A stretch of 64,000 nt of DNA. It comes from Candidatus Woesearchaeota archaeon (GTDB taxonomy: Archaea; Nanobdellota; Nanobdellia; Pacearchaeales; GW2011-AR1). Within the stretch, counting starts at the first letter, position 1. Each line of letters starts with the position of its first letter. A model generated the notes under the pieces. It had not been told where the DNA came from and did no database searches. It saw only the letters and a list, made by a program, of their open reading frames with translations. The stretch is from the NCBI GenBank assembly GCA_964547875.1, contig CAZJPE010000002.1, positions 42,130 through 106,129 of the forward strand. The letters run 5' to 3'. Both the position numbers and the translations under genes were made by a program. Positions 28,288-55,109 of this stretch are shown here, one piece after another.

Positions 28288-29142
28288 TCATTCGTCTAGA
28301 GGAATTGTAACTCTTTTAGCAACTGCGCCAGGCAGAAATTCTTCTCCGCTTGGAATATATGTATTTGTATAAATTACGCGCGAACGCTTTGATACATTTG
28401 GACGCGAGCCGTGCAGCGTATTTCCGCTCATAAACATGGCTGCCCCTTTTTTGCCTATTATATTTACCTCTGTTCCCTTATATTTCTTAGGTATTTCTGT
28501 TATGTTGCCTGGCTGCTCTCCTTTTTGCTCGCGATAGCTTGTCTGAGGAGTAAAAGGCAGAATGCCTTCTTTGTGAGAGCCTGGATAAACAAATATTGGG
28601 CCATTTTCATTATCAATGTCATCTAAAAACAAGCCAGTTGTGATGTATAAGCCATATGGATTTTTAGTATAGGCATTATCCTGATGAACATTCCATGCCT
28701 GTTTAGCATATTGAGTATCTGGTTTTTTGAAAAGAATCATGCTCATTAAGCCGACATGTTCTCTTGGAATAAAATTATCCATGTGCCCTGTGGCAGAACG
28801 ACCATATTGCTTCATAATCTGCTCCTGAAGCTGATCCAATACCGAAACAATACGCCTGTCTTTCATTAGATTTAGCGCAAGTTCTGATGTTCCTTCTATT
28901 TCGCGCAGAACTTCTGGCGTCTTTTCTCTTGGGTCTTGTTTAGCTAATTTCGCCTTACTATGCATATTTAAAATACAGGCGTATTCAGACGTAGCATGAT
29001 GAGAGACTTTTTCAGTGATTTCATCACATTCTGCTGGGGAAAATAGATTTTCAACAACTAAATATCCATTATTGTTGTAGAAACCTATCTGATCTTCTGA
29101 GAGTTTTATGTCATTACCTCGCTTGTATATCAAATTTGTCAT
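28288..29142 (-). CDS. Phytanoyl-CoA dioxygenase (PhyH) family Fe(II)/2-oxoglutarate oxygenase
   Basis: 284 aa. HxD...H facial triad (NVHQDNAYT ... NTLHGS). A PhyH-type N-terminus. Confidence 0.75.
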   Translation of the reverse strand: MTNLIYKRGNDIKLSEDQIGFYNNNGYLVVENLFSPAECDEITEKVSHHATSEYACILNMHSKAKLAKQDPREKTPEVLREIEGTSELALNLMKDRRIVSVLDQLQEQIMKQYGRSATGHMDNFIPREHVGLMSMILFKKPDTQYAKQAWNVHQDNAYTKNPYGLYITTGLFLDDIDNENGPIFVYPGSHKEGILPFTPQTSYREQKGEQPGNITEIPKKYKGTEVNIIGKKGAAMFMSGNTLHGSRPNVSKRSRVIYTNTYIPSGEEFLPGAVAKRVTIPLDE

Positions 29143-29400
29143 TTTCTCTGATTATTAAATATGTATTTAAATATATCTATTTTTTTGAGTTAGGTTTTAA
29201 ATAATAACCCTGCTTTATTTTTTTATGGATTTATATCCAAAGATACTTGAGAATCAGATTAATGAATTAAATGAAAATTTGAAATCATTAAATAAGTCAA
29301 TCAATGAATTTTCTAGGACTTCTGAAGTGGTGATAGGGCTTCAAATTTACTTAACTCTTTTTTAGGACGATTGTCGCTAATTTAACAGCTCACTATTTTT

Positions 29401-30795
29401 TTAACTTGATTGAATAGAGGATTGCTTATACTTGTCAAAAACACGACACACATGAAGGGTAAATTCTCTTCCTGCTTCTGTGATTTCAATTGCCTTGTCT
29501 GAATAGCTCAATATTCCATCTTTTGCAAGATCGCCTAATTGTTCTATTTCTCTATTGAAATATTCGGGAAACTTGATATTGTAGGCTTTTTCTATAGTTG
29601 CGTAATCAACAGAGAAATAATTGCGCAATTTGCGTATAATATCTCTTCTAATTATATCGTCTTGGCTTAGTTTGTGCCCTCTGAAAACTGGAAATAAGTC
29701 TTTGTTAACGAGAGATTTATGCGACTCAACTCCATATATATTCTGAAAATAGAAATTTCCAAGCGTAGAGGCGCTATGCGGACCAACGCCTATTACATCC
29801 ACACTTCTTCCTGGCGTTGCGCCGAGTGCATTCCAATGCATTTTGCCTTCTTTTAATGCTTTGCCAATTGCATCTTCTATCTTTGTAAAATGTTCGTATC
29901 CTGCGCGCAAATATCCATTTTCTGTAAGCACTTTAAGCCCTTGCTTGAAAAGATGTTTTCTTTCTCTTGCATCAGGTAGACTATTTGGCCTTCCATTGCG
30001 CCCATCAATCATTATATTTTGATGCTGGGCAAATCTTGGGGCAAAATCCAAATAATTAAAGCAAACTCTATCAGGAGAAAGTTCTATTATTTCCTCAAAT
30101 GTCTTCCTTATACCATCTTCTGTCTGCAGAGGCAGCCCGCATATAATGTCAAAACTAACTCCGTTCTTAAAGAGTTTTCTAATATCTGGAGCAATCAAGC
30201 GCCTTACTAATTCTGATGGCTGCACTCTGTTGACTGCCCTTTGGACATTTATGTCAAAATCCTGCAATCCAAAAGAAACCCTATTAATCCCTTTTTCGTG
30301 ATAGTATTTCATTCTTTCCTCGCTTACAAATCTAGGATCAATTTCTATTGCAAACTCGTCTAAATTTTTTATGTTAGCTATAGGATTGATAGCATCAACT
30401 AAATAATCAAATTCTTCCTCGTCTAAGAACGTTGGCGAGCCTCCGCCAAGATGAACTTCAACAAAATTTGGGTTGATTGAATTTTCCTCAAAGAATTTTC
30501 TATATAAGCTTATTTCATTAGAAAGCGTTTTTAAATAATCTTTTGCCTTGTCGTGGTCTTTTGTAATCTCAAAATGGCATGTGCAAAAAAAACATGGCTT
30601 TGTGCAGTATGGGAAATGCACATATAATGTTAATGGTTCATCTTTTTGAATGCCGGATAATTGGCTTAGGGCTTCTTTAATATCTTTCTGGCTAAACTTT
30701 TCTGACCAAAAACTTTTATGAGGATATTCAATATACATGAACTCCTTAGAATTATGCTTTTCAACTAATGCATCTATTGTTTGATTTGGTTCCAT
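29401..30795 (-). CDS. HemN-like radical SAM enzyme (coproporphyrinogen III oxidase family)
   Basis: 464 aa. YVHFPYCTKPCFFCTC contains the CxxxCxxC cluster, followed by a HemN-type C-terminal domain. Confidence 0.8.
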   Translation of the reverse strand: MEPNQTIDALVEKHNSKEFMYIEYPHKSFWSEKFSQKDIKEALSQLSGIQKDEPLTLYVHFPYCTKPCFFCTCHFEITKDHDKAKDYLKTLSNEISLYRKFFEENSINPNFVEVHLGGGSPTFLDEEEFDYLVDAINPIANIKNLDEFAIEIDPRFVSEERMKYYHEKGINRVSFGLQDFDINVQRAVNRVQPSELVRRLIAPDIRKLFKNGVSFDIICGLPLQTEDGIRKTFEEIIELSPDRVCFNYLDFAPRFAQHQNIMIDGRNGRPNSLPDARERKHLFKQGLKVLTENGYLRAGYEHFTKIEDAIGKALKEGKMHWNALGATPGRSVDVIGVGPHSASTLGNFYFQNIYGVESHKSLVNKDLFPVFRGHKLSQDDIIRRDIIRKLRNYFSVDYATIEKAYNIKFPEYFNREIEQLGDLAKDGILSYSDKAIEITEAGREFTLHVCRVFDKYKQSSIQSS

Positions 30796-30871
30796 CTTTT
30801 CTTTCGTTAAATTGCAATTTTAATTGAATATATAAATTTTGTGATGTTTAACTTGTTTAAAGAAGTATGCT

Positions 30872-32197
30872 TTATAATGTGGCAAGATTATTCTCCTTTA
30901 ATCTTTTCTGCAATTCCATATAGTTCTCAATTATCTCTTTCTCTGAAAAACTTCTGTCCCATGGAGTCTGTTTTGCATACCTAAATGTAAGATTTGGCGT
31001 TTCATTGCTATACCTACCAATCATGTGCATTGTTTTATTCCAGTCTGTATTTATCCACTCTATGCCAAATCTCTCTGGATGCTCATAGACCTCTGTTCCA
31101 GGCCTTAGAGTAAATAAAGAGAGATAAACCATTTCAGGACTTGTCTCTTCAATAAACTGCCATGTCTTTTCAACTATGTTTTCGGGCTCTGCAGGAAGCC
31201 CCATTATCAAATAAAGCCTTGTTTCAATTCCGCTCTCTTTCAGATGCCTAATTGCTAATTTTGATTCTTCAACATTTATTTTTTTATTTATTAAATCCAA
31301 AGATTTTTGCGAAACACTTTCTACGCCCATGCCTAAGGATACACATCCTGATTCTTTTGCCAGTCTTGCTAATTCAGGAGTTATTCCATCAACTCTGCAC
31401 TGCCCCCGCCATTTTATTCCTGTGCTGGCGATTGCTTCCAAATGTGATATTGCTCTTAAAAGGTTGAGTGGAATACTTATTTCATCAGACATGCTTATCG
31501 CGCGAATACCATATTCTCTTTTTAGATACTCTATTTCTTCGCTTATAAATTCAGGCCTTCTAAATCTAATTCCTGGCGCATAATCTCTCATTTGAGGAAC
31601 TGCGCAAAAAGAACAATTATACGGGCAACCCCTGCTAAATACAGTTGTTGTGCTCAGCAATTCGCCATAATCCTTATTATGCCTTGAATTCAAGAGACCT
31701 TTTCTAGCAACTGAAGATTGAGGGATATACTTTCTCAATGGAAATGGATAATCGTTTATATCCGTCTTTTCTTCCTGATGATAAACTTTCTTCATGCCAG
31801 AACCATTAAAATCCTGCAATGCTTTTATTATTGATTCTTCTCCTTCTCCAAGAATAATTGAATCAAAATTTTCTTGAGATTCTTTTGGGAATAAATTGAC
31901 ATGATAGCCTCCAGCTATGTGCTTTGCCTTCGGATATCTTTCTCTCAGCGCTTTTACTAATTGATTTTGCTCATCCCAATCAAGAGTATAAACTGAATGA
32001 AGGTATATGTCACATTCTGGAATATGCTTCAAAGTGAATTCTTTTTTTATTCCGCGTAAGTCAATCAATTGCGCGTTTACTTTATTTTCCAATCTTGATT
32101 CTATTATGGTAAGCAAATGAAAATGCGCATGCGGATCTCCTTTGAACGGATCAAATAGATAATCGCTTGTTGGATTAATGAATCCTAATTCCAGCAT
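30872..32197 (-). CDS. Class B (B12-binding-domain) radical SAM enzyme
   Basis: 441 aa. About 190 aa N-terminal Rossmann-like domain ending in ILGEGEES, then SRGCPYNCSFC (CxxxCxxC). Confidence 0.8.
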   Translation of the reverse strand: MLELGFINPTSDYLFDPFKGDPHAHFHLLTIIESRLENKVNAQLIDLRGIKKEFTLKHIPECDIYLHSVYTLDWDEQNQLVKALRERYPKAKHIAGGYHVNLFPKESQENFDSIILGEGEESIIKALQDFNGSGMKKVYHQEEKTDINDYPFPLRKYIPQSSVARKGLLNSRHNKDYGELLSTTTVFSRGCPYNCSFCAVPQMRDYAPGIRFRRPEFISEEIEYLKREYGIRAISMSDEISIPLNLLRAISHLEAIASTGIKWRGQCRVDGITPELARLAKESGCVSLGMGVESVSQKSLDLINKKINVEESKLAIRHLKESGIETRLYLIMGLPAEPENIVEKTWQFIEETSPEMVYLSLFTLRPGTEVYEHPERFGIEWINTDWNKTMHMIGRYSNETPNLTFRYAKQTPWDRSFSEKEIIENYMELQKRLKENNLATL

Positions 32198-32226
32198 GAT
32201 TATAATTAAATTATTTAGTTTATAAA

Positions 32227-33174
32227 TTATTCTGAAAGAACATTTGTTTTATACCAATCCATTGTCTTTCTTATTCCTTCATCTAACGATACTTGTGGCT
32301 TCCAATTAAAACATTCCTTTGCTTTTGATGAATCAAGAGCAAGATTTGTCTTAATTGTCGGCTTTGATATGTCATATTCAATTCTTATTTTTTTTCCTGA
32401 AAATCTTATTATCTTTTTTACTAATTCTTCTATGGATGTATAACTGCCAGAGCCAACATTGAACAATTCAAATGGAGAATCTTGCTTATCTATGGCTAAT
32501 TCTATTAATTTAACTAAATCTGAAACATGCAATAAATCCCTTTTTTCCTCTCCTGTGCCCCAGACTTTTATTGCGCTGCCCTCTTCTGCTTTCATCACTT
32601 TTGTTATTGACGCGCCAAAAACATGGGATCTTTCCAAGTCAAATTTATCATAAGGGCCGTAAATATTGGATTGGCGTAAAATAGTATGCTTTGTTCTTCC
32701 TTGTTTGGAAAAGAACTCGCACATTCTCTCTATGTATAATTTTGTATTTGCAGAGCCAAAATAAACTGGATGTATGTCAACCTTATCTGTTTCTTTTATT
32801 AGAGTATCTGATGAAGGGTAAACAGTAGATGAGCTTGGAAAAATAAAATGTTTTACATGATTATCAAATGCTGCCCTTAAAAGAAGGGAATTAATTATTG
32901 CATTATCTGTTATATGAATATGCGGAGATGTGAAAATCTTTCCAGCTCCGCTTGTGTTGGCTGCCATTTGCACTATAACATCTTTGTTTTTAGTAACGCG
33001 CTCAACATCCTCTTTATTTGTTAAATCTGCCTTGATTAACTCAATCTCCATATAAGGACAAGAATTGAGATAAGTTCCGCATATTTCATAATCTTCTCTT
33101 TGAGAGAGATATTCAGCTACATTTCTTCCTATAAATCCTGTTGCGCCGCAGACTAAAATTTTTTTCTTATTCAT
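32227..33174 (-). CDS. NAD-dependent nucleotide-sugar epimerase/dehydratase (GDP-fucose-synthase-like size)
   Basis: 315 aa. ILVCGATGFIGRN Rossmann motif and extended SDR fold. Confidence 0.8.
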   Translation of the reverse strand: MNKKKILVCGATGFIGRNVAEYLSQREDYEICGTYLNSCPYMEIELIKADLTNKEDVERVTKNKDVIVQMAANTSGAGKIFTSPHIHITDNAIINSLLLRAAFDNHVKHFIFPSSSTVYPSSDTLIKETDKVDIHPVYFGSANTKLYIERMCEFFSKQGRTKHTILRQSNIYGPYDKFDLERSHVFGASITKVMKAEEGSAIKVWGTGEEKRDLLHVSDLVKLIELAIDKQDSPFELFNVGSGSYTSIEELVKKIIRFSGKKIRIEYDISKPTIKTNLALDSSKAKECFNWKPQVSLDEGIRKTMDWYKTNVLSE

Positions 33175-33886
33175 TTTTTAGTTCTATTATACTATATTTA
33201 GTAGCATCTTTCATGCGAAATCTTTCTGGACGGCCTTCAAAAATAATGTTTTCAATAGCAGGATTACGACATGCTTTATAAATTCTTGCTGCAATATCAT
33301 GACGATTCATTCCATATTCATGCTCTGGTTTTGTCTTTACTCTTGTTAGATAAATCCCGATTAAATTGATATTATAATCTCTAGCCTCTGTCCTTAAGCT
33401 ATCTGTAAAACCGCGCAATCCACATTTTGCAGCAGATGAAACGCTTCTTGATTTTTTCGGTTCTATCGCAGTAATAGAATTAATATTCACTATAGTGCCT
33501 TTATTTTTTGCTTGAAACAAAGGATAAACCATTTGCGTTAGTCTTATAGGGGCATAAAGACTGACTCTTATTAAATCGTCAAAATCTTCATTGCTAATTT
33601 TCTCAAATGGGACACCTGGGCAACGCTTCGCAGCATTATTAATTAATATGCTTATATTCTTCTCTTTTGCAATTGTATATAAGTCATCAAGTGTGCTGTT
33701 ACTTCGCAAATCGCCTTTAATGCAATAGCAATCCATTCCTTTTTCTAATATTTTTTTTGATACTTTTTCCAGTTCAGATTCTTTTCTTGCGTGAATAATA
33801 ATATTATAATTATTATTAGAAAATTCTAGAGCAATGGCCTCTCCTATTCCATTGCCAGAGCCTGTAATCAGAATTGTTTCTCTCAT
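33167..33886 (-). CDS. Short-chain dehydrogenase/reductase (classical SDR)
   Basis: 239 aa. ILITGSGNGIGEAIA (TGxxxGIG) and NNAA motif. 8-bp overlap with the downstream gene. Confidence 0.85.
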   Translation of the reverse strand: MRETILITGSGNGIGEAIALEFSNNNYNIIIHARKESELEKVSKKILEKGMDCYCIKGDLRSNSTLDDLYTIAKEKNISILINNAAKRCPGVPFEKISNEDFDDLIRVSLYAPIRLTQMVYPLFQAKNKGTIVNINSITAIEPKKSRSVSSAAKCGLRGFTDSLRTEARDYNINLIGIYLTRVKTKPEHEYGMNRHDIAARIYKACRNPAIENIIFEGRPERFRMKDATKYSIIELKNE

Positions 33887-33937
33887 TTTATTGACTTAAA
33901 ATCTACTTTTATAAGCATTTATGTAGTAAATTTTAAA

Positions 33938-35770
33938 TTAAGAAGCCTTAAGAAGATCATATAATCCCAAACTATTAAACCGCGTTGACCAAAATTCTGA
34001 TTCATTTATATATTTTTCTGCTAGATTTCTATTTATCCTGGCTTTTTCTTTCTTGCCAAGTTTTTCTCTTATAATTGCAAGATATAAATTCCCCAAAGGA
34101 TTATCTTCGCTTCTTTTTTCGCATATTTCTTCTAGCCATTTTTCTTGCAATGCCAGCTTTATTGGATGGCTCTCATTAGCAAGATTTTGATAATTTATGT
34201 AGTAATCTGTAAGAAACCAAATATCTTTCAATTCAGCTCTTGTTGGAACATATTCTCTCGGCTTGTCTAGAAGAATATTGAAGAATCCTACGGAAGAAGT
34301 TTTTCTCTTTTTCTCGTACTCTCTCGCCGCAACATTTCCAAAACCATACATGAATCTGCTTTGTGAAGATTCTTCTACAATGCTGCCTGTTTCCATCTGC
34401 TCGGCCTCTTTTATTTTTCTTGCCATGTCTGTTTGAGGAATTGGAAGAGCCACATGGATGCTATACCAATCAAGGTGCATTTTATTAGCCAATCCTATTG
34501 TGTTCCATATTTGGCCTAATGTCTCTCCAGGATAGCCTATAATCAAAAATCCCTTTGAGAAAATATTTGGATGATATTCTCTCATTATTTGGGCAGCCTC
34601 TACATACTTGTGTATGTTTCCTGGCTTTCGCATCTCGTGCAAAATTTTTGGATCTCCCGATTCAAGTCCAAAGCTCATTCCAATACATCCAGAAGCTTCT
34701 GCAAGTTGCGCCACATCTCTGTTAAGAAATGCCGCAATAACTCCGTTTGAAGCATCCCATGTCACTCCCAAATTTCTTTTTGCCATTTCTTCAAATAGCT
34801 TTTTTACATGTCTCGTATCTGAAATTAAATCGTCGTCCAACCATACTAGATGTTTTACTCCGTATTTGTCTCTCAAGTCCTCTATTTCGCCTATTACGCT
34901 TTCTATTGATCTACGGCGCACGCCTTTCCCATTAAATTCTCTCACAGAGCAGAAATCGCAATGCGCGATACATCCTCTTGTTGACGATATAGTGCTGCAT
35001 CTTATGTCCTCGCCGCGTATCCATCTTCCGTATACTCCGATCTTTCCTATTCTTGAATAATCTCCAATAGGCAAATTCTGCCAATTTGGATACTTGCTTA
35101 TTATTTCCTCAGAAGGCGTATCTCGTTTATCAAGCGAGACGAAATTGTTATCTATTAATGTCGCGAGTTGCGATAATCTGCTCGCGTCAACTTTTTTGTT
35201 TATAAAATCTATCATGTCAGGAAAACTATTATCTGATTCAAAAAGCGAGACAAAATCTATGCTTCCTTTTGAATTGCGAAGTGTTTCTTCTGCTGCCAGA
35301 GCAGGATAACCGCCGCCCGTAATTACTGGTATTTTTGGATTGTATTGCTTGACATAATCTGCCAATGCTTTTACTTCTGGATAATTCATTGTAAACATGC
35401 AGGATATTCCAACCAAGTCTGGCTTGAATTTATCAAGTCTTTCATGAAAAATTCCTTCCCATATTGTATTAAAATTAAATTCTCCATTTGAGTCGTAAGC
35501 CTCTCTTAATACTTCATAATTCATGTCCAGCAATTTTGTTTGATAGCCTCTTTCTTCCAGCGCCCTAGATAAAAGGGCTATATTATACGGCTGATAGCAT
35601 GGATAGTTTCCTATCTTTGCGATTTTGACATCAAAAACATCTCTTGTCGTTTGAGGGGGATTAACTAAAAGGATTTTCCTAACGCTATTTGGAAATTTCT
35701 CACTAAGCTCGCGAGTAATTTTCTCTTTTGCTGAATAATCTGTTTTGTTAAGCAGTTTTAGTTCTAGCAT
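33938..35770 (-). CDS. Class B (B12-binding-domain) radical SAM enzyme
   Basis: 610 aa. N-terminal KILLVNPPQ B12-like domain, STRGCIAHCDFC (CxxxCxxC) at about residue 265, and a long C-terminal extension. Confidence 0.8.
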   Translation of the reverse strand: MLELKLLNKTDYSAKEKITRELSEKFPNSVRKILLVNPPQTTRDVFDVKIAKIGNYPCYQPYNIALLSRALEERGYQTKLLDMNYEVLREAYDSNGEFNFNTIWEGIFHERLDKFKPDLVGISCMFTMNYPEVKALADYVKQYNPKIPVITGGGYPALAAEETLRNSKGSIDFVSLFESDNSFPDMIDFINKKVDASRLSQLATLIDNNFVSLDKRDTPSEEIISKYPNWQNLPIGDYSRIGKIGVYGRWIRGEDIRCSTISSTRGCIAHCDFCSVREFNGKGVRRRSIESVIGEIEDLRDKYGVKHLVWLDDDLISDTRHVKKLFEEMAKRNLGVTWDASNGVIAAFLNRDVAQLAEASGCIGMSFGLESGDPKILHEMRKPGNIHKYVEAAQIMREYHPNIFSKGFLIIGYPGETLGQIWNTIGLANKMHLDWYSIHVALPIPQTDMARKIKEAEQMETGSIVEESSQSRFMYGFGNVAAREYEKKRKTSSVGFFNILLDKPREYVPTRAELKDIWFLTDYYINYQNLANESHPIKLALQEKWLEEICEKRSEDNPLGNLYLAIIREKLGKKEKARINRNLAEKYINESEFWSTRFNSLGLYDLLKAS

Positions 35771-35815
35771 CTTTTTTCTCCTTAATTTAGATATATGTTT
35801 TATTTAAATCTCTTT

Positions 35816-38002
35816 CTATACTAATTGTTTCGCTTTAATAGGCGCGCATGAATATATATAATCTCCCTTTTTGTTTCCCCACCAAATTACTCTTCTTGCC
35901 CAATCTTCCCACGAATCCCATTTGTCATTGGTTCTGTTTATCGCATAATTAAATTCTCCTTTTTCTATCTGGATTTTTTCTGCTACTAAGCCTGCCTTGT
36001 AAATATCTAAAACATTATAATTCAGAGTTATTATTTTATCTTGTGTATTGAAAGGCATTTTAAGCAACTCTTTATTGAAACGGATAGCATCTGATAGGAC
36101 CGAGTTCTCCTTATAGCCTTTTTTTTCTAAAAGATATTCTAAATTTGCCTGGGCTTCTTTGTAGAACGCATCAAGTTCTCTTTCTGTTGCAAGCTTGATT
36201 AAAGCATACTCATCTGCTGGCCACCATATATTCAGCCATCTTTTGGAATGAATATATTCTGCTCCTCCATTTTGAAGATTTCTGGCATGCCCGGAAAATA
36301 AATCGCTAATCTCTTGCGTAATCGGAGTTTTTCTTGGATTTTCTATAAAAGTGTCTGCTATTTCCTTGTAGCTGATTCCATATTGCGTATTCAACAAAAT
36401 GTTTGGGAGTTGTAAGAGCTTGTCAAAATGCAAAAAAGCGAGCATATAACCAAAGTTTCTCGCCTTAACCCAATCTTCTCTGGGCATTGTGTTAGTTCCT
36501 ACAACTAATTGCTGTTTTTCATAGATATTATCTGCCCATTCTCCCAAACTTCCATGAATATTTATCATGTCAGATTCTGCTATTTCTATTCCATATTTTT
36601 CAATATCCTCTGTCATGGGCGCATTTGGAAGTATTGATAAATTGTTGAATTGTATCCTATTATGCTGACCATTTTCTATGAGAGTTGAGACTCCTCTTGT
36701 AAAAGTTTCATATGTTTCCAAAGGCAGTCCTAATATAATATCTGAAAATGTCGTAACTCCTTCTGTTGTAAACCTTTTTTGCAACTCGTGATATGTTGAA
36801 AGTTTTATATTGCCTCTTTTTATAGCTCTAAGAGTTGGTTCATGAAGAGATTGAAAAGCTAAAAGGACGCCTTTATCCAGACCGCTATCATTAAGCACTT
36901 TCTGAATTCCATATGACACCTCTGTTGAGTTTTTGGTATTTTGTACAGAAAATCTATGCGGATAGCCATAATTTCTTTTATTTTCTGCAAAACGTTTCGC
37001 AATAGCTAAATCCCTTTCTTTGTACAGACCAAAATTAGCATCGCAACAATAGACAAATTCTATCTTATTTCTGCTAAACCAATCTATCTCTTTGAATATC
37101 CTGTTTTCCAAATCGTAATCTGCCATTCTCTTTGTTGATGCAATTCCCCAATCACAGAAACTACACTCAAATGGGCAGCCCCTATTTGTTTCAAAAAGAG
37201 CATTCCACTGTTGATCAGGATTTGATTTAATTAATTCATCGAAATATCCTGTTAAATAAGGAGAAGGAATTGTATTCAGATCCTCAACCCTTTGTTTTTT
37301 TAGGCTTTCTATAATCGGATCCAGTTCTCGCCGTTTTTTAAGAAATTCATCTGTGCTTAGATTTTTGACATGGGTTACATATAGTTTTTTTAAATCTTCT
37401 GGGCTTTGTTCTTCAAGATATTCTGCACTATATATTTTTTTTAGGTATTCCTTGTACTTATTTAACAAATCTTGCATACTTAACCCTTCATTTGTATAGA
37501 CAAACCTTTTCTTTTCATCTAAAAATGCCAAGGAGGGTACAGCTTCCCAATTGCCTGAAGGATAATTTTCCAAGAAGGATTTGAAAGGCCTTTCTCCTTC
37601 TCCAGGGGAGGCGAAATCAACAAAAGGATATTTTCTTAGAAGAGCTTCCAAACCTTTTTCTTTAGTATCGGGAACGTGGCATCCGCCAAAAAGAATAATT
37701 GCATTTGGATTCTCTTCTTTTATTCCTTTTGCTATTGCCTTTGAAATCTCAAAATTCCAGACATAAGTGCTGAAACAGGCGATATTGGAGCCAGATAAAT
37801 GCTCAACTGCTTTTTCAATTGATATTCTTTTATAAATTGGACTTGAGAATTCAAAATCATCAAAATTCCTTGCATGTCTCTGCGCATAAGAATGCAAGAA
37901 TCCCAACGAGAGCGGCAGATAATCCTGTCTATCAAAGCTATTATTAATCTGCACCATACCCACTTTTATCTTTCTCTTTTTCTCTTTTTGCATTGTTTCC
38001 AT
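35816..38002 (-). CDS. Class B (B12-binding-domain) radical SAM enzyme, large
   Basis: 728 aa. N-terminal KIKVGMVQIN B12-like domain, NRGCPFECSFC at about residue 275, and a roughly 350 aa C-terminal extension. Confidence 0.8.
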   Translation of the reverse strand: METMQKEKKRKIKVGMVQINNSFDRQDYLPLSLGFLHSYAQRHARNFDDFEFSSPIYKRISIEKAVEHLSGSNIACFSTYVWNFEISKAIAKGIKEENPNAIILFGGCHVPDTKEKGLEALLRKYPFVDFASPGEGERPFKSFLENYPSGNWEAVPSLAFLDEKKRFVYTNEGLSMQDLLNKYKEYLKKIYSAEYLEEQSPEDLKKLYVTHVKNLSTDEFLKKRRELDPIIESLKKQRVEDLNTIPSPYLTGYFDELIKSNPDQQWNALFETNRGCPFECSFCDWGIASTKRMADYDLENRIFKEIDWFSRNKIEFVYCCDANFGLYKERDLAIAKRFAENKRNYGYPHRFSVQNTKNSTEVSYGIQKVLNDSGLDKGVLLAFQSLHEPTLRAIKRGNIKLSTYHELQKRFTTEGVTTFSDIILGLPLETYETFTRGVSTLIENGQHNRIQFNNLSILPNAPMTEDIEKYGIEIAESDMINIHGSLGEWADNIYEKQQLVVGTNTMPREDWVKARNFGYMLAFLHFDKLLQLPNILLNTQYGISYKEIADTFIENPRKTPITQEISDLFSGHARNLQNGGAEYIHSKRWLNIWWPADEYALIKLATERELDAFYKEAQANLEYLLEKKGYKENSVLSDAIRFNKELLKMPFNTQDKIITLNYNVLDIYKAGLVAEKIQIEKGEFNYAINRTNDKWDSWEDWARRVIWWGNKKGDYIYSCAPIKAKQLV

Positions 38003-38035
38003 GATAATTTTTCATGTTATGCCTTGTTTATATAA

Positions 38036-39022
38036 TTATTGCTTAAAAATATCGTATCTTTTAGTTAATATCTCTTTATTTTCGTTATACCATGCCATTG
38101 TTTTTTTTATTCCTTGTTCTAAGGAAACTTGAGGATTAAATCCAAGAGCGAGAGCGCGGGAAATATTCATTGTTCTTATTTTATCGCCATAATTTTTAGA
38201 AGTTTCGTATACAATTTTAGGCAACTTATCCGAATTATTTATTATTATTTCCAATGCTTGCTTTATTGTTTGTTTATTGCCAGAACCTAAATTTACCGGA
38301 TTTTCAGGCCCTGGATTTTTTTCCATGACAAGCATCATTCCTCTTGCTACATCGTCCGTATAAACGAAATCCCTTATTTGAGAGCCGTCTCCCCAAACAA
38401 CAATTGGATTTTCTCCATTAAGAATTTTCCTAATTAATGAAGGAATAACCATTGCACTATCTTGAGCAAAGTTATCATAGGGGCCATAAGTATTTGAAGG
38501 ACGGACAATTGATATCTTGCCCCAGTTATATTCAATTTTACATGCTCTTGCCTGGGCTTCTCCAACTCGCTTTGCTAATCCTGTATAAAAATCATTTTCA
38601 GAAAGAGGTATTCTTAATACATCAATTGAATCGTCATAAATCTCTGATGAAGAATAAACTGCATAGCTGCTTGCAAATAAATATCTTTCAACATCTGATT
38701 CTCGCGCTGCTTTTAGAAGATTTGTATTAAACAAGAGCATAGGCTCTAAAAAGCTTAATGGTTTTTCTTTGTTTATTTTAGGAGAACCTTTAATGCATAA
38801 TAGATTAAATACATAATCAATATTTCTACATGCTTTAAGGCAATTTTCATATTTTATTAAGTCCAGATGTAAAAATTCTGCTTCTGGATGGGCTCTTGAT
38901 TTGTCGTCAAGAGATGCTATTCTAACTTCAGCTTCTTCTTTTATTAGATTTTTTACTAGAGGGATGCCTATTAAGCCAGTGCCTCCTGCAACTAAGACTC
39001 TTTTATTTTTGTAGAAGCCCAT
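38036..39022 (-). CDS. NAD-dependent nucleotide-sugar epimerase/dehydratase
   Basis: 328 aa. VLVAGGTGLIGIP Rossmann motif. First gene of the minus-strand operon. Confidence 0.75.
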   Translation of the reverse strand: MGFYKNKRVLVAGGTGLIGIPLVKNLIKEEAEVRIASLDDKSRAHPEAEFLHLDLIKYENCLKACRNIDYVFNLLCIKGSPKINKEKPLSFLEPMLLFNTNLLKAARESDVERYLFASSYAVYSSSEIYDDSIDVLRIPLSENDFYTGLAKRVGEAQARACKIEYNWGKISIVRPSNTYGPYDNFAQDSAMVIPSLIRKILNGENPIVVWGDGSQIRDFVYTDDVARGMMLVMEKNPGPENPVNLGSGNKQTIKQALEIIINNSDKLPKIVYETSKNYGDKIRTMNISRALALGFNPQVSLEQGIKKTMAWYNENKEILTKRYDIFKQ

Positions 39023-39121: not shown

Positions 39122-40810
39122 ATGAAGAGAATAAGTTTGGAAGAGACGAGCAGGCTGTTGAAGAAAAAGACTGCTTTATGCGCTCTTTGGAATTGTGAAG
39201 ACAGGAAAAACTGGCCTTATCAATTAGGATATCTTGTATATAAGGACTTGTTCAAAGAAGTATTTTTATTCGATCCAAAAGCAGAAAGGCTTAGACATGG
39301 CTCAGAAATTATGAAAAATAAGATGTTTGATATTATAAAAAATAAAAAACCTAATTATGCCTTTTTATTACTGGAGGCAAATGACATTAGCTTGGACACG
39401 CTTGAAAAAATAAAAGAGATATCTCCCAATACAAAAACACTTGCTATATTTGGAGATGATGACATTCATTTTGAAACTCGTTCAAGATATTATGCCTTAT
39501 TTCTTGATTACTGCATATTTTGCCCGATAAAATATTTATCTTCTTATAGAAATGATGGGATTATGAATTCCCTGCCTTTTGCAGGAGGAGTAAATACAGA
39601 AAATTTTAAGCCTTTGAAGCTTGAGAAAAAATATGATGTTGTATGTATTGGAAAGCCTGTGCCTGCGTCAAGAGCTGAGGCAATAAGATTCTTAATTAAA
39701 AATGGAATTAAAGTAAATATCTGGGGCTATGGATGGGACAACTATCCTGAATTTAAGGAAGTATACGGCGGACCGCTTGAACATAACGAGATGGTTAAAG
39801 TAATAAATCAAACTAAGATTTATCTTGGATTTTGCAAGAATAAACTGGGCGAGGCGCATAATACTGGAAAATTCTTTGAAAGCGCTGCGTGTGGAACATT
39901 TTGCCTTGTTGATGAATTTCCTGAATATCAAGAATATTTCAATAATAATGAAATAGTTAATTTCAGCGACAATAATGATTTGCTGAATAAAGCAAGATAT
40001 TATTTGAAAAATGAAAAAGAAAGAGAGAGAATTGCAAGAAACGCACATAAGAAAACAATCAAAAATCATAGCTATCATATGATTTATAGAAAAATTTTCC
40101 AGAGAATTTTTATGATGGAAGATTCTAAGACTCTTCTTAAGCTTGACAATAAAGTTATACGGCTTTCAGAAGAAGACATGAATCTTGATTATTCTTCTAT
40201 TGAAGAAAAATTAAAAGATTATTCTTATGTTTGCTTTTCTGAAGGAAAATCCTTAATACATAAGCATAAAAATTTCCTTCAAGCTTATTCTTTGGAAAAA
40301 ACTGGAAAAGACATAAGCTGCTGCGATTATTTTGTATTTTCTCAAGGAATTGGGAGATATCTTAAATCAGATGCATTTAGGGCTTCCTTAAATGTAAAGA
40401 AAGAAGAATTCAACAAATTGCTGAATATTAATCAGATAATGCTAAGAAAAGAATATTTTATGAGGCATTTTGATAGTTTCAAGAAATTTTATAATCTTGG
40501 CGAGATAAACATAATTGACAAAGATAATGTCGCCTTTATAGAAATTCCTTTAGTGCAAATAAACAGATTGAATAAGATTAGCAAAGACTGCCTATATAAT
40601 CTGGATTCTGTCTCTCTTGAAAATTCATTTCAGTTTAGGTTCATGTTTGAACTTTATTTGCTTTTATATCAAAAAAGACTGCTATTTAATAAATATCTAT
40701 ATAGGCTCGTGATTGAATCTATTATGAAATGGGATACTTTTATTTTAAAATATTTATTTAATTCTCTTTTTAACAAGGAAAAGCGGCTTAGAATCAAAAA
40801 CCTAATTTAA
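39122..40810 (+). CDS. CgeB-like glycosyltransferase (DUF3880 + Glyco_trans_1_2 architecture)
   Basis: 562 aa. The central region (KIYLGF...NTGKFFESAACGTFCLVDEFPEYQEYF...LLNKARYYLKNEKERERIARNAHK) matches the CgeB/YkvP family. Confidence 0.5.
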   Translation: MKRISLEETSRLLKKKTALCALWNCEDRKNWPYQLGYLVYKDLFKEVFLFDPKAERLRHGSEIMKNKMFDIIKNKKPNYAFLLLEANDISLDTLEKIKEISPNTKTLAIFGDDDIHFETRSRYYALFLDYCIFCPIKYLSSYRNDGIMNSLPFAGGVNTENFKPLKLEKKYDVVCIGKPVPASRAEAIRFLIKNGIKVNIWGYGWDNYPEFKEVYGGPLEHNEMVKVINQTKIYLGFCKNKLGEAHNTGKFFESAACGTFCLVDEFPEYQEYFNNNEIVNFSDNNDLLNKARYYLKNEKERERIARNAHKKTIKNHSYHMIYRKIFQRIFMMEDSKTLLKLDNKVIRLSEEDMNLDYSSIEEKLKDYSYVCFSEGKSLIHKHKNFLQAYSLEKTGKDISCCDYFVFSQGIGRYLKSDAFRASLNVKKEEFNKLLNINQIMLRKEYFMRHFDSFKKFYNLGEINIIDKDNVAFIEIPLVQINRLNKISKDCLYNLDSVSLENSFQFRFMFELYLLLYQKRLLFNKYLYRLVIESIMKWDTFILKYLFNSLFNKEKRLRIKNLI

Positions 40811-50591: not shown

Positions 50592-50662
50592 TTTTACTCT
50601 TTTTTGCTCCTCATTTTATAAAGCCGTATCTGGATAATATATAAACATTATGAGAAAATAGT

Positions 50663-55090: not shown

Positions 55091-55109
55091 ATTTATGCAG
55101 GAGAATTTT

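What the first reader, a model, noticed from the sequence alone, without database searches (positions are those of the whole stretch)
28288..39022. Eight-gene operon with three B12-type radical SAM enzymes, a HemN-like radical SAM enzyme and a PhyH dioxygenase: candidate pathway for a heavily tailored sugar or glycolipid
The sequence shows eight same-strand genes with gaps or overlaps of at most 46 bp, except one 258-bp gap. In order they encode an epimerase/dehydratase, three class B radical SAM enzymes of 728, 610 and 441 aa (cluster motifs NRGCPFECSFC, STRGCIAHCDFC, SRGCPYNCSFC, each after an N-terminal B12-like domain), an SDR, a second epimerase/dehydratase, a HemN-like radical SAM enzyme (CTKPCFFC) and a PhyH-type Fe/2OG oxygenase.

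From established knowledge, class B radical SAM enzymes catalyse C-methylation and other radical chemistry on unactivated carbons, as GenK, GenD1 and Fom3 do, and as hopanoid and tetraether lipid enzymes do. HemN-like enzymes include C-methyltransferases. PhyH-family enzymes hydroxylate or deaminate, and KanJ in kanamycin biosynthesis is one. Epimerase/dehydratases and SDRs act on NDP-sugars.

My inference is that this is a cassette for multiply C-methylated and/or oxidised deoxysugar decoration of the surface glycan, or for lipid modification. That would be unexpected in a reduced AT-rich archaeon, and I know of no characterised pathway with this gene order.
Basis: partly seen in the sequence, partly recalled or inferred. 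Interest (0 to 1): 0.85.

Follow-up and report, generated by a model that had tools for sequence, protein, structure and literature searches.

The report
Radical-SAM sugar-tailoring cassette, cross-domain
The eight genes are real and belong to an uncharacterised gene set, shared by DPANN archaea and more than a dozen bacterial phyla, that most likely uses up to four radical-SAM enzymes to remodel a nucleotide-activated sugar for the cell-surface glycan.

Summary
Eight minus-strand ORFs (28288-39022) encode Epimerase, B12-rSAM R1 (728 aa), B12-rSAM R2 (610), SDR, Epimerase, B12-rSAM R3 (441), HemN-like rSAM and PhyH. The gene order and two gap sizes were slightly misreported.

The sugar reading is supported and the lipid reading is rejected. 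The window is an AglB N-glycosylation island with candidate NDP-heptose genes and a TPP-dependent E1alpha/beta pair.

R1 is a full-length structural match to the iterative C-methylases TokK and CysS. Its family occurs in at least 581 species. In 82 loci it sits beside E1alpha/beta, epimerases, an aldo-keto or SDR reductase, a GHMP kinase and a nucleotidyltransferase.

R3+Epi2, HemN, PhyH and R2 recur together in Elusimicrobia, Nitrospirae, Planctomycetota, Omnitrophota and Desulfuromonadales. An R1::HemN fusion (Geomonas limicola) and a HemN::PhyH fusion show that the "coproporphyrinogen oxidase" is a pathway partner, not a haem enzyme.

The eight genes are a modular set, not a fixed operon, and the functional unit extends beyond the given coordinates. 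Product and chemistry remain unknown. I found no published characterisation. Best guess: radical alkylation, oxidation or deoxygenation of a C-branched NDP-sugar.

The parts
38036..39022 (-). Epi1: GMER/GDP-fucose-synthase-like extended SDR (328 aa) with an atypical catalytic motif
   Evidence: Pfam Epimerase 153 bits. NF047922 Fcl E 7.8e-42, below cutoff. Orthologues lie next to R1 in many loci. The canonical Tyr of YxxxK is absent: 'YTGLAK' here, 'AGWAKR' in orthologues.
35816..38002 (-). R1: TokK/CysS-like class B radical SAM enzyme (728 aa), putative cobalamin-dependent (iterative) C-methylase
   Evidence: PDB sequence hits TokK 1.6e-82 and CysS 8.9e-57. AF2 model pLDDT 90.6. Foldseek: TokK E 1e-44, TMt 0.82-0.85; CysS TMt 0.78. 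CxxxCxxC at C276/C280/C283, invariant across 56 sequences. At least 581 species carry a relative.
33938..35770 (-). R2: class B radical SAM enzyme (610 aa) of a small family, linked to PhyH
   Evidence: Pfam B12-binding 65.5 bits and Radical_SAM 73.9 bits. Best PDB hit QCMT 9ccb, 6e-20. Only about 50 full-length cluster representatives at >=30% identity. Orthologues (38-39%) are adjacent to PhyH in L017 and L022/L085.
33167..33886 (-). Classical SDR (239 aa) in the position held by an aldo-keto reductase or SDR downstream of R1 in bacteria; catalytic Tyr replaced by Ser
   Evidence: Pfam adh_short 133.8 bits. An AKR lies directly downstream of R1 in 46 loci and an SDR cluster occurs in 33 loci. 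Motif 'SVSSAAK'.
32227..33174 (-). Epi2: GMER-like extended SDR (315 aa), conserved partner of R3
   Evidence: Pfam Epimerase 151 bits. PDB GMER 1bsv 1.7e-27. Orthologues at 52-59% identity lie next to R3 orthologues in L007, L013, L014, L015, L018, L034 and L042. Motif 'YFGSANTK' has no canonical Tyr.
30872..32197 (-). R3: compact class-B-architecture radical SAM enzyme (441 aa); cobalamin use uncertain
   Evidence: Pfam Radical_SAM 83.8 bits, B12-binding 32.8 bits. AF2 pLDDT 91.0. Best fold match AprD4 6fd2, E 9e-20, TM 0.70, then CysS, QCMT, TsrM and TokK. Tight family: 56-64% identical proteins in Elusimicrobia, CPR, Nitrospirota and Geomonas.
29401..30795 (-). HemN-like radical SAM enzyme (464 aa); pathway partner of R1 and PhyH, not a haem enzyme
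   Evidence: TIGR00538 360 bits, above the 325 cutoff. 1olt 5.5e-76 over the full length. R1::HemN fusion in Geomonas limicola. HemN::PhyH fusion P0257. Three of three HemN-anchored loci lie in rSAM/sugar clusters.
28288..29142 (-). PhyH-family Fe(II)/2-oxoglutarate oxygenase (284 aa), probably with its own promoter
   Evidence: Pfam PhyH 95.5 bits. H153-x-D155 and H244 are present. 258-bp AT-rich upstream gap with a TATA-like 'TTTAAATA' about 30 nt before the ATG. Found in 10 of 82 R1 loci.
39122..40810 (+). Glyco_trans_1_2 glycosyltransferase-like protein (562 aa), divergent neighbour
   Evidence: Pfam 104 bits. Homologues (c35) accompany the cassette in L001, L002, L013, L018, L034 and L088.
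45345..47236 (+). E1alpha (306 aa) and E1beta (332 aa): stand-alone TPP-dependent pair, candidate C2-branch installer
   Evidence: Pfam E1_dh; Transket_pyr plus Transketolase_C. Homologues flank R1 in 40-42 of 82 loci, typically as E1a-E1b-(Epi)-R1-AKR. Precedent: AviB1/B2 and Pau11/12 plus the AKR Pau7 (PMC4753412).
47283..48555 (+). DJ-1/PfpI protein (176 aa) and cupin-like protein (260 aa) that co-travel with E1alpha/beta
   Evidence: Pfam DJ-1_PfpI 162 bits; weak Cupin_2. Homologues are present in 8 loci each and in Geomonas and L085.
48552..52302 (.). Candidate NDP-heptose supply: HddC::HddA-like fusion (48552-50591, -), GmhB (50663-51250, -), 4,6-dehydratase-like SDR (51325-52302, +)
   Evidence: NF049965 181 bits and NF049969 275 bits, both below cutoff. 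TIGR00213 GmhB 153 bits, above the 149.6 cutoff. PF16363 228 bits. A similar fusion lies beside the cassette in L002 and L088.
60682..61365 (+). SIS-domain protein, candidate sedoheptulose-7-phosphate isomerase (GmhA-like), next to a transketolase
   Evidence: PF13580. The four top NCBIfam hits are all gmhA/phosphoheptose-isomerase models, but at 64 bits against a 209 cutoff. The transketolase at 61337-63133 scores 516 against a 488 cutoff.

Best explanation
The eight genes are the radical-chemistry core of a conserved, modular pathway that tailors a nucleotide-activated sugar, which is then built into the cell-surface (N-)glycan.

Shown here:
- The enzyme families and their architecture.
- Co-occurrence of the genes across domains.
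- The gene fusions.
- The glycan-island context.

Inferred mechanism:
1. A neighbouring module makes an NDP-sugar, most likely a GDP-heptose or a 4-keto-6-deoxy derivative. The candidate genes are GmhA-like, HddA/HddC-like, GmhB and a 4,6-dehydratase-like SDR.
2. The stand-alone E1alpha/E1beta pair adds a two-carbon acyl branch from a 2-oxo acid, as proposed for AviB1/B2 and Pau11/12.
3. R1, a TokK/CysS-type cobalamin-dependent radical SAM methylase, methylates an unactivated carbon of that branch or of the sugar, possibly repeatedly.
4. The SDR that follows (an aldo-keto reductase in most bacteria) reduces the keto group.
5. HemN-like, PhyH and R2 act on the same moiety. They are tied to R1 and to each other by fusions and adjacency. 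They would perform further radical C-C or C-H chemistry and a hydroxylation.
6. R3 with its fixed partner Epi2 forms a separate module, possibly an AprD4/AprD3-like radical dehydration and reduction (deoxygenation).
7. The GMER-like Epi1 and Epi2 bind or epimerise the NDP-sugar.
For: - Family and fold assignments.
- Glycan island and heptose genes.
- The R1 family is present in at least 581 species.
- Within +/-10 kb of R1 in 82 loci: epimerases 70, AKR directly downstream on the same strand 46, GHMP kinase 45, E1alpha/beta 40-46 depending on method, DegT 36, NTP_transferase 33, SDR 33, RmlC-like 19, NUDIX 15.
- The whole window gene set recurs on one strand in an Elusimicrobia MAG: PMT_2-Epi-GT2-GHMP-cupin-E1a-E1b-R1-Epi1-HemN-R2-PhyH-Epi-NUDIX-R3-DJ1-DegT.
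- It recurs in cultured Geomonas limicola, with R1 and HemN fused into one 1117-aa protein followed by an AKR.
- HemN::PhyH fusion P0257.
- Three loci chosen only by HemN similarity all sit among B12-rSAMs, epimerases, PhyH/NUDIX and GHMP/NTP-transferase genes. One has a Wzm/Wzt exporter.
- At least 12 of the top HemN homologues have the same longest-contig length as top R3 homologues, which suggests they share contigs.
- Biochemical precedent for E1alpha/beta plus AKR making a C-4 hydroxyethyl branch: PMC4753412.
Against: - No substrate or product is known, and no member of any of these four rSAM clades has been assayed.
- The HddA/HddC and GmhA assignments are below NCBIfam cutoffs, so the sugar could be a hexose.
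- Homology of E1alpha/beta to AviB1/B2 was not tested directly.
- The solved relatives TokK and CysS act on pantetheinylated substrates, not NDP-sugars.
- All three SDR-fold proteins lack the canonical catalytic Tyr, so the proposed reductions may not be theirs.
- R3's nearest fold is cobalamin-independent.
- Most loci were collected through R1 similarity, so those co-occurrence figures are conditional on R1.
- In the window the E1 pair lies 6 kb away on the other strand.
Confidence: 0.62

Rival explanations
1. The substrate is not an NDP-sugar but another handle-bearing small molecule. It could be a pantetheine/CoA-linked acyl unit, or a cyclitol or polyol that is later activated by the kinase and nucleotidyltransferase. 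The rSAMs would then build an unusual alkylated or carbocyclic head group, through HpnJ/calditol-synthase-like ring chemistry or TokK-like chain building, which is attached to the glycan afterwards.
For: - TokK and CysS, the only solved relatives of R1, use pantetheinylated substrates.
- R1-R3 give weak HpnJ hits, 1e-15 to 1e-25.
- GHMP kinase, NTP_transferase, TPP enzyme and AKR resemble a de novo activated-polyol route.
- Geomonas adds a sugar-acid dehydratase (GD_AH) upstream of E1alpha/beta.
- The atypical SDRs lack a catalytic Tyr.
Against: - GMER-like epimerases, a 4,6-dehydratase-like gene, DegT aminotransferases, RmlC-like genes and NUDIX dominate the neighbourhoods.
- No ACP, PPTase or CoA-ligase was seen among the conserved neighbours.
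- The HpnJ scores are far below cutoff.
Confidence: 0.13
2. The cassette makes a diffusible secondary metabolite (aminoglycoside-, nucleoside- or oligosaccharide-type) rather than a structural surface glycan.
For: - Class B rSAMs, PhyH (KanJ), an AprD4-like fold, DegT and E1alpha/beta (AviB1/B2, Pau11/12) are all classic antibiotic-sugar enzymes.
Against: - The window is an AglB/flippase/GT/PMT_2 island.
- The bacterial loci carry GT2/GT4 genes, a Wzm/Wzt exporter and PMT_2, but no aglycone, 2-deoxy-scyllo-inosose synthase or resistance genes among the conserved clusters.
- Carriers include CPR and DPANN organisms with minimal genomes.
Confidence: 0.08
3. Only the five-gene core (Epi1-R1-R2-SDR-Epi2) is one functional unit. 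HemN is a genuine coproporphyrinogen III oxidase and PhyH an unrelated neighbour.
For: - HemN passes the NCBIfam hemN equivalog cutoff, 360 against 325, and aligns end to end with E. coli HemN.
- A 258-bp gap precedes PhyH and a 76-bp gap precedes HemN.
- In L002 the HemN block is separated from the core.
Against: - R1::HemN fusion and HemN::PhyH fusion.
- HemN is embedded between rSAM and epimerase genes in L085, L087, L088 and L089.
- This HemN clade occurs in Patescibacteria and DPANN relatives. From general knowledge, these groups lack tetrapyrrole synthesis.
Confidence: 0.04
4. The rSAM enzymes modify membrane lipids (GDGT cyclisation, methylation or bridging; Tes/GrsAB/Hbs type; or hopanoid-like).
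For: - Weak hits to TIGR04072 'lipid biosynthesis B12-binding/radical SAM' and to HpnJ/HpnR, 1e-12 to 1e-25.
- The host is an archaeon.
Against: - All those scores are far below cutoff.
- The nearest structures are TokK, CysS and AprD4.
- Orthologues at 40-62% identity are abundant in bacteria without GDGTs and always lie in sugar loci.
- No lipid-synthesis genes are present in the window.
Confidence: 0.03

Closest known systems
TokK / ThnK / CysS / KedN5 cobalamin-dependent radical SAM (iterative) C-methylases
   Same: R1 shares the full three-domain architecture: a Rossmann cobalamin-binding domain, a radical SAM TIM barrel and a C-terminal domain. TM-score is 0.82-0.85 to TokK and 0.78 to CysS. 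Sequence E-values are 1.6e-82 and 8.9e-57. The CxxxCxxC motif is present.
   Different: Sequence identity is only 22-27% in the structural alignment. R1 scores 231 bits against the KedN5-family model, whose cutoff is 700. The context is NDP-sugar/glycan genes, not carbapenem, cystobactamid or enediyne clusters. Known substrates are pantetheinylated. R1 has a lineage-specific 63-aa insertion. The family is highly conserved (40-50% identity) across archaea and more than 15 bacterial phyla.
AviB1/AviB2 and Pau11/Pau12 (E1alpha/beta-like) plus Pau7 (AKR): C-4 acetyl to hydroxyethyl branched octoses (avilamycin, paulomycin; yersiniose-type sugars in LPS)
   Same: A stand-alone E1alpha/E1beta pair and a ketoreductase (AKR or SDR) sit in a sugar-nucleotide cluster. 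In bacteria the order is E1a-E1b-(Epi)-R1-AKR.
   Different: Here a TokK-like rSAM is inserted between the TPP pair and the reductase, and up to three further rSAMs plus PhyH accompany it. Direct sequence relatedness of the window E1 pair to AviB1/B2 was not tested.
E. coli HemN (oxygen-independent coproporphyrinogen III oxidase) and HemN-like class C radical SAM methyltransferases and cyclopropanases (NosN/NocN, ChuW, Jaw5, C10P)
   Same: Full-length alignment to 1olt (5.5e-76). The CxxxCxxCxC, GGGSPT and other signature blocks are present. The protein passes the TIGR00538 cutoff.
   Different: It is found in glycan clusters of organisms without haem synthesis. It is fused to R1 or to PhyH in some genomes. 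It is much closer to HemN itself than to characterised class C methylases (NocN 1.6e-16, ChuW 5e-35). No HemN-type enzyme is known to act on a sugar.
AprD4/AprD3 (apramycin C3' deoxygenation: radical SAM 1,2-diol dehydratase plus SDR reductase)
   Same: AprD4 is R3's best structural match (TM 0.70, E 9e-20). R3 has an invariant SDR-fold partner, Epi2.
   Different: R3 scores only 57.5 bits against the AprD4 family model, whose cutoff is 500. CysS, QCMT, TsrM and TokK score almost as well. Epi2 is GMER-like and lacks the canonical Tyr.
GenK/GenD1, Fom3, PhpK, HpnP/R, QCMT and other class B rSAM methylases
   Same: R2 and R3 share the B12-binding domain plus radical SAM core. NCBIfam hits to PhpK/Sden_1168, QCMT, BzaD and BchE range from 1e-21 to 1e-32.
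   Different: All are far below family cutoffs. No characterised member belongs to the R2 or R3 clades.

Membership tests
Class B (cobalamin-dependent) radical SAM, TokK/CysS/KedN5 clade (R1) | CxxxCxxC [4Fe-4S]/SAM motif in a TIM-barrel core | tested here: met
   C276/C280/C283 are invariant in 56 homologues. Pfam Radical_SAM 33.5 bits.
Class B (cobalamin-dependent) radical SAM, TokK/CysS/KedN5 clade (R1) | N-terminal Rossmann cobalamin-binding domain and TokK-type C-terminal domain | tested here: met
   AF2 model pLDDT 90.6. The Foldseek alignment to TokK spans about 700 columns, TMt 0.82-0.85. Pfam B12-binding alone is sub-threshold (25.3 against 32.1).
Class B (cobalamin-dependent) radical SAM, TokK/CysS/KedN5 clade (R1) | Score above the curated KedN5-family HMM cutoff | tested here: not met
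   NF033712 231.5 bits against a 700 cutoff. R1 is a sister family, not a member.
Class B (cobalamin-dependent) radical SAM, TokK/CysS/KedN5 clade (R1) | Binds cobalamin and transfers methyl groups via methylcobalamin, iteratively | not testable with these tools
   Needs reconstitution and assay.
Class B radical SAM (R2, R3) | B12-binding domain plus radical SAM core | tested here: met
   R2: PF02310 65.5 bits. R3: 32.8 bits, just above the 32.1 gathering score. The R3 model has Rossmann plus barrel.
Class B radical SAM (R3) | Actual cobalamin dependence | tested here: inconclusive
   The best fold match, AprD4, has the same architecture but does not use cobalamin. The cobalamin-dependent CysS, QCMT and TsrM score nearly equally.
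HemN, oxygen-independent coproporphyrinogen III oxidase (TIGR00538) | Score above the equivalog cutoff; CxxxCxxCxC and full-length HemN architecture | tested here: met
   360.4 bits against 324.95. 1olt alignment covers residues 9-459. Motif 'HFPYCTKPCFFCTC'.
HemN, oxygen-independent coproporphyrinogen III oxidase (TIGR00538) | Functions in haem/tetrapyrrole biosynthesis (genomic context, host pathway) | tested here: not met
   No tetrapyrrole genes in the window. The gene is embedded in sugar/rSAM clusters in all loci examined. Fusions to R1 and PhyH exist.
PhyH Fe(II)/2-oxoglutarate oxygenase | Pfam gathering score and HxD...H facial triad | tested here: met
   95.5 bits against 22. H153-Q-D155 and H244 in 'TLHGSRPN'. 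The triad was assigned by motif position only.
Extended SDR, GDP-fucose synthase (GMER)-like (Epi1, Epi2) | Rossmann GxxGxxG motif and overall fold family | tested here: met
   GGTGLIG and GATGFIG. Pfam Epimerase about 150 bits. GMER PDB hits about 1e-27.
Extended SDR, GDP-fucose synthase (GMER)-like (Epi1, Epi2) | Catalytic Ser-Tyr-Lys with YxxxK; Fcl equivalog cutoff | tested here: not met
   The K-4 position is T (Epi1) or S (Epi2), and A/P/G/S in orthologues. NF047922 scores 144 and 140 bits against a 500 cutoff.
AprD4-type radical SAM diol dehydratase (R3) | Family HMM cutoff | tested here: not met
   NF033070 57.5 bits against 500.
AviB1/AviB2-type sugar C2-branching E1 pair | Stand-alone E1alpha plus E1beta without E2/E3, inside a sugar cluster with a ketoreductase | tested here: met
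   No E2/E3 was seen among the conserved neighbours.
AviB1/AviB2-type sugar C2-branching E1 pair | Sequence orthology to AviB1/B2 or Pau11/12; acyl transfer to a keto-sugar | not tested
The activity needs an assay.
GDP-D-glycero-alpha-D-manno-heptose pathway (GmhA, HddA, GmhB, HddC) | All four enzymes present above curated cutoffs | tested here: inconclusive
   GmhB is above the TIGR00213 cutoff (153 against 149.6). HddA 275/600, HddC 181/300 and GmhA 64/209 are best hits but sub-threshold.
Archaeal GDGT lipid rSAMs (Tes, GrsA/B) and other lipid-biosynthesis B12-rSAMs (TIGR04072) | Family HMM cutoff and lipid-locus context | tested here: not met
   TIGR04072 scores 45-76 bits against a 360 cutoff. 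The context is glycan. Orthologues are widespread in bacteria. No Tes or Grs reference was compared directly.

The most novel reading that the evidence does not exclude
A previously unrecognised and widespread route, present in hundreds of species from DPANN archaea and CPR bacteria to Bradyrhizobium, Reyranella, anammox bacteria and Geomonas. In it, a TPP-installed carbon branch on a nucleotide sugar is extended and reshaped by a relay of radical SAM enzymes. The relay comprises a TokK-like iterative methylase, a true HemN-type enzyme recruited from tetrapyrrole chemistry to carbohydrate chemistry, and two further class B enzymes, together with a PhyH hydroxylase. The product would be a new class of C-alkylated higher-carbon sugars in cell-surface glycans. 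It would also be the first sugar substrate for a HemN-type enzyme.
Probability: 0.35. Interest if true: 0.88.

Novelty: new variant of a known kind. Interest (0 to 1): 0.72.

Why it matters
1. **New role for class B rSAMs.** Known sugar-modifying class B radical SAM enzymes come from antibiotic pathways. To my knowledge, and in the papers searched, none is established in prokaryotic structural glycan biosynthesis. Here a single conserved family (R1) occurs in at least 581 species, always in sugar loci. That implies a common but unseen class of modified sugars.

2. **Systematic misannotation.** A whole clade annotated as 'oxygen-independent coproporphyrinogen III oxidase', and passing the curated hemN model, is almost certainly mis-named. 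This affects metabolic reconstructions of CPR and DPANN organisms, where it falsely suggests haem metabolism.

3. **Cobalamin dependence.** Up to three cobalamin-type enzymes in a reduced DPANN genome would imply dependence on externally supplied B12 merely to decorate the surface. That bears on symbiont-host exchange.

4. **Tractable system.** The cassette exists in a cultured bacterium, Geomonas limicola, which makes the chemistry experimentally accessible.

Tried and rejected
- **Exact look-up of R1** found nothing. R3 and HemN were on record (P0121, P0244), and an independent Logan contig confirmed the arrangement.
- **Bacterial promoter/terminator scan** was uninformative: 42 promoter-like sites against 48 expected, 6 terminator-like against 7. 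Archaeal TATA-like boxes were judged by eye only.
- **tRNA and Rfam scans** were empty.
- **GC content.** The cassette is 0.348 against 0.325 for the window, so there is no clear signal of recent transfer.
- **Literature.** Eight full-text searches found no paper describing this cassette. A 2026 review of B12-rSAM enzymes does not mention sugar, glycan or polysaccharide. The C. jejuni HS:19 radical SAM lead was unrelated.
- **Lipid (Tes/Grs) and B12 lower-ligand (BzaD) readings** were rejected on score and context.
- **Tetrapyrrole reading** (automatic 'BchE'/'HemN' names) was rejected on context.
- **CoA-pathway idea.** I considered that CTP_transf_like plus the KTI12-like kinase might be CoA-pathway enzymes that supply a pantetheine handle. 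The best NCBIfam hit is RfaE domain II (heptose-1-P adenylyltransferase), PPAT is only 26 bits, and these genes accompany the cassette only in the archaeal lineage and a few CPR loci. I did not pursue it.

Full report
**1. The observation**

The region 28288-39022 holds eight minus-strand ORFs. They are 328, 728, 610, 239, 315, 441, 464 and 284 aa long.

Pfam assigns them as follows:
- Epimerase.
- Radical_SAM plus B12-binding, three times.
- adh_short.
- A second Epimerase.
- Radical_SAM plus HemN_C.
- PhyH.

Two details were wrong. The order is Epi1-R1-R2-SDR-Epi2-R3-HemN-PhyH, so the third B12-type enzyme follows the SDR and the second epimerase. The intergenic distances are 33, 45, 51, -8, 29, 76 and 258 bp.

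An independent assembly from a public read set carries the same R2-to-PhyH block (L083). The genes are intact in relatives.

**2. Host and setting**

The closest R1 relatives in species-representative genomes are Candidatus Woesearchaeota MAGs, at up to 78% identity (L004). The window is 32.5% G+C. A DPANN archaeon is therefore the likely host; this is an inference.

The window from about 1 to 52 kb is a glycosylation island. It contains:
- an AglB/STT3 oligosaccharyltransferase, a GT4 phosphosugar transferase and a flippase;
- many GT2, GT4, GT9 and PMT_2 genes;
- RmlC- and RmlD-like genes and methyltransferases.

Next to the cassette lie several further genes:
- a Glyco_trans_1_2 protein;
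- a cytidylyl/adenylyl-transferase-like protein whose best hit is RfaE domain II;
- a HAD hydrolase and a small kinase;
- a stand-alone E1alpha/E1beta TPP pair;
- a DJ-1/PfpI protein and a cupin;
- an HddC::HddA-like nucleotidyltransferase-kinase fusion;
- a GmhB phosphatase, above its NCBIfam cutoff;
- a 4,6-dehydratase-like SDR.

A GmhA-like SIS protein and a transketolase lie at 60.7-63.1 kb.

The island therefore plausibly makes an NDP-heptose. Three of the four assignments are sub-threshold, so this remains a lead.

**3. The individual enzymes**

R1:
- It hits TokK (1.6e-82) and CysS (8.9e-57) by sequence.
- An AlphaFold model built on 56 homologues has pLDDT 90.6 and pTM 0.88.
- The model superposes on TokK over its whole length (E 1e-44, TM 0.82-0.85) and on CysS (TM 0.78). 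TsrM, OxsB, AprD4 and QCMT lie far behind.
- It is not a member of the curated KedN5 family: 231 bits against a 700 cutoff.

R2:
- It has a strong B12-binding domain, 65.5 bits.
- Its nearest solved structure is QCMT, through the radical SAM core only.
- An exhaustive search shows a small family, with about 50 full-length cluster representatives at >=30% identity.

R3:
- It models with pLDDT 91.0.
- Its best fold match is AprD4, the cobalamin-independent radical SAM 1,2-diol dehydratase of apramycin biosynthesis (TM 0.70). CysS, QCMT, TsrM and TokK follow closely.
- The class B architecture is therefore confirmed, but cobalamin use is open.

The HemN-like protein:
- It passes the NCBIfam hemN equivalog cutoff, 360 against 325 bits.
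- It aligns end to end with E. coli HemN.

PhyH has an HxD...H triad by motif.

An unexpected detail concerns the three SDR-fold proteins. All lack the canonical catalytic Tyr of YxxxK while keeping the Gly-rich nucleotide motif, and for the two GMER-like proteins the loss is conserved in their bacterial orthologues. I cannot explain this.

**4. Comparative genomics**

This is the main new evidence. It is 40-50% identical between the archaeon and the following groups:
- Planctomycetota, Omnitrophota, Elusimicrobia and Nitrospirae;
- CPR bacteria and cyanobacteria;
- Methanoperedens and Brocadia;
- many Alphaproteobacteria, including Reyranella and Bradyrhizobium.

I clustered all ORFs of 82 R1-anchored loci and annotated the cluster representatives. 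The conserved neighbours of R1 are:

| Neighbour | Loci of 82 |
|---|---|
| Epimerases | 70 |
| AKR immediately downstream, always same strand | 46 |
| GHMP kinase | 45 |
| E1alpha / E1beta | 40-46, depending on method |
| DegT aminotransferase | 36 |
| NTP_transferase | 33 |
| SDR | 33 |
| RmlC-like | 19 |
| NUDIX | 15 |
| PhyH | 10-11 |
| Split transketolase | 9 |
| HemN | 7 |

A typical order is E1a-E1b-(Epi)-R1-AKR.

Other recurring associations:
- R3 orthologues (55-62% identical) recur in L007, L013, L014, L015, L018, L022, L027, L034 and L042. In most of these an Epi2 orthologue (52-59%) lies beside R3, often with a NUDIX gene between them.
- True R2 orthologues are rarer. In L017 and L022/L085 they lie next to PhyH.

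Three loci carry essentially the whole gene set:
- An Elusimicrobia MAG has it on one strand: PMT_2-Epi-GT2-GHMP-cupin-E1a-E1b-R1-Epi1-HemN-R2-PhyH-Epi-NUDIX-R3-DJ1-DegT-Epi-Epi.
- The 74%-identical archaeal relative has all eight genes. They form two blocks, Epi1-R1-R2-SDR-Epi2 and HemN-PhyH-R3, separated by three opposite-strand genes.
- Geomonas limicola, described below.

The eight genes are therefore a conserved set of modules rather than a fixed operon.

**5. The HemN question**

Two gene fusions settle that the HemN-like enzyme belongs to this pathway.
- In cultured Geomonas limicola the cluster reads Epi-NTPt-GHMP-GD_AH-DJ1-E1a-E1b-cupin-R3-rSAM-[R1::HemN]-AKR-Epi-Epi-DegT-GT. The fusion is a single 1117-aa protein. 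Residues 1-637 are 45% identical to R1 over the main aligned block, and residues 670-1113 are 40% identical to the window HemN.
- P0257 (742 aa) is a HemN::PhyH fusion.

As a prospective test I looked up three HemN-clade proteins chosen only by HemN similarity. All three lie among B12-rSAMs, epimerases, PhyH/NUDIX or GHMP/NTP-transferase genes. One of them lies beside a Wzm/Wzt-type polysaccharide exporter.

At least twelve of the top HemN homologues have the same longest-contig length as top R3 homologues, which suggests they share contigs.

Many of these proteins are automatically named 'oxygen-independent coproporphyrinogen III oxidase', including ones from Patescibacteria. That name is very probably wrong for this clade.

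**6. How it most likely works**

Shown: the families, the folds, the co-occurrence, the fusions and the glycan context.

Inferred:
1. An NDP-sugar, possibly GDP-heptose or a 4-keto-6-deoxy derivative, receives a two-carbon acyl branch from the E1alpha/beta pair. This was proposed for AviB1/B2 and Pau11/12. In paulomycin the AKR Pau7 was shown to reduce the C-4' acetyl branch to hydroxyethyl (PMC4753412).
2. R1 sits between the TPP pair and the reductase, and resembles enzymes that build ethyl, isopropyl or tert-butyl groups by repeated methyl transfer. It would methylate that branch or a nearby carbon.
3. The SDR or AKR would reduce the ketone.
4. HemN-like, PhyH and R2 are linked to each other and to R1. 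They would carry out further radical C-C or C-H chemistry and a hydroxylation on the same moiety.
5. R3 plus Epi2 look like an independent module, possibly an AprD4/AprD3-style deoxygenation.

I give the general statement (NDP-sugar tailoring for a surface glycan) about 0.6-0.75. I give the specific branch-and-methylate scheme about 0.3.

**7. Rivals**

- A non-sugar substrate remains possible, for example a pantetheinylated unit, a cyclitol or a polyol. TokK and CysS use pantetheinylated substrates, and the SDRs are atypical.
- A diffusible natural product is less likely, given the AglB, flippase, GT and Wzm/Wzt contexts and the minimal genomes of many carriers.
- HemN as a haem enzyme, and any lipid function, are contradicted by the fusions and by the bacterial distribution.

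**8. Novelty**

None of eight full-text searches found a description of this cassette. A 2026 review of B12-dependent radical SAM enzymes has no mention of sugars or glycans. The library covers only open-access papers and bioRxiv preprints, so absence is not proof.

The component superfamilies are known, and radical C-methylation of sugars is known from aminoglycosides. I therefore rate this a new variant of a known kind.

Several features make it a good candidate for new carbohydrate chemistry:
- its breadth of distribution;
- the TokK-like enzyme in structural glycan loci;
- the recruitment of a bona fide HemN-type enzyme;
- the Tyr-less SDR partners.

One lead, no more than that: the Kuenenia S-layer O-glycan contains an unidentified 174.09-Da residue (PMC5088730). 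This mass is isobaric with a C-4 hydroxyethyl-branched 3,6-dideoxyhexose, and R1 homologues occur in anammox MAGs.

Noticed in passing
window 33167-33886, 32227-33174, 38036-39022: All three SDR-fold proteins lack the canonical catalytic Tyr of YxxxK but keep the Gly-rich NAD(P) motif. SDR239 has 'SVSSAAK'; its closest orthologues have 'VFSGAR' (Tyr to Phe, Lys to Arg). The Epi1 family has 'AGWAKR' and the Epi2 family 'YFG..WTK'. For the two GMER-like proteins the loss is conserved across phyla. The meaning is unknown.
   Followed up: partly
window 35816-38002 (R1 residues ~176-238): R1 carries a 63-aa K/E-rich insertion between the Rossmann and barrel domains. It is predicted helical. It is shared only with the two closest relatives (P0001, P0002) and is absent from all other homologues aligned.
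   Followed up: no
R1 homologues P0021, P0036, P0055, P0075: Some R1-family proteins are 835-1073 aa long and carry intein/Hint domains (PF14528, PF14890, PF07591). This indicates inteins inserted into the enzyme.
   Followed up: no
window 48552-52302 and 60682-63133: A candidate complete NDP-heptose route: transketolase, a GmhA-like SIS protein, an HddC::HddA-like fusion with a CBS domain, GmhB and a 4,6-dehydratase-like SDR. Only GmhB and the transketolase pass curated cutoffs.
   Followed up: partly
window 1-27500: A large N-glycosylation island on both strands. It includes AglB/STT3 (1255-4011), a GT4 phosphosugar transferase, a flippase, five GT2 genes, two PMT_2 proteins plus a weak PMT-like one, GT9, GT4, RmlC, RmlD, an FdtA-like protein and several SAM methyltransferases. 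QueC (21792-22508) sits in the middle.
   Followed up: partly
window 54278-57149: A second small sugar-like module: a shikimate-dehydrogenase-like protein, an NTP_transferase, a KdsC/KDN-9-P-phosphatase-like HAD and a cupin paralogous in type to the one beside E1beta. It may feed another activated (ulosonic?) sugar.
   Followed up: no
HemN homologues listed (e.g. P0284, P0328, P0339, P0349): Members of this HemN clade in Elusimicrobia, Deltaproteobacteria and Patescibacteria MAGs are named 'oxygen-independent coproporphyrinogen III oxidase' by their sources. The window protein itself passes the NCBIfam hemN cutoff. This looks like a systematic misannotation.
   Followed up: yes
L084 (Geomonas limicola BLXZ01000004) 5371-6885: In Geomonas a galactarate-dehydratase/altronate-hydrolase-type sugar-acid dehydratase (GD_AH) sits just upstream of DJ-1-E1a-E1b. 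In some versions the TPP pair may therefore decarboxylate a 2-keto-3-deoxy sugar acid rather than use pyruvate.
   Followed up: no
L088 (JAIYLQ010000035) and L013/L018/L034: Some loci carry five or six radical SAM genes in a row (four or five B12-type plus HemN). One has a GmhB::NTP_transferase fusion next to an HddC::HddA-like fusion. The window version is a mid-sized variant of a larger combinatorial system.
   Followed up: partly
window 29143-29400: The 258-bp HemN-PhyH spacer is AT-rich. It has a TATA-like 'TTTAAATA' about 30 nt upstream of the PhyH ATG and a 46-codon plus-strand ORF (29225-29365) of no evident significance.
   Followed up: no
literature lead (PMC5088730): The S-layer O-glycan of Kuenenia stuttgartiensis contains an unidentified 174.09-Da residue, read as 'dimethylated deoxyhexose or something else'. 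That mass also fits a C-4 hydroxyethyl-branched 3,6-dideoxyhexose (C8H14O4). R1 homologues occur in Brocadia and Brocadiaceae MAGs. Whether Kuenenia itself carries the cassette was not checked.
   Followed up: no
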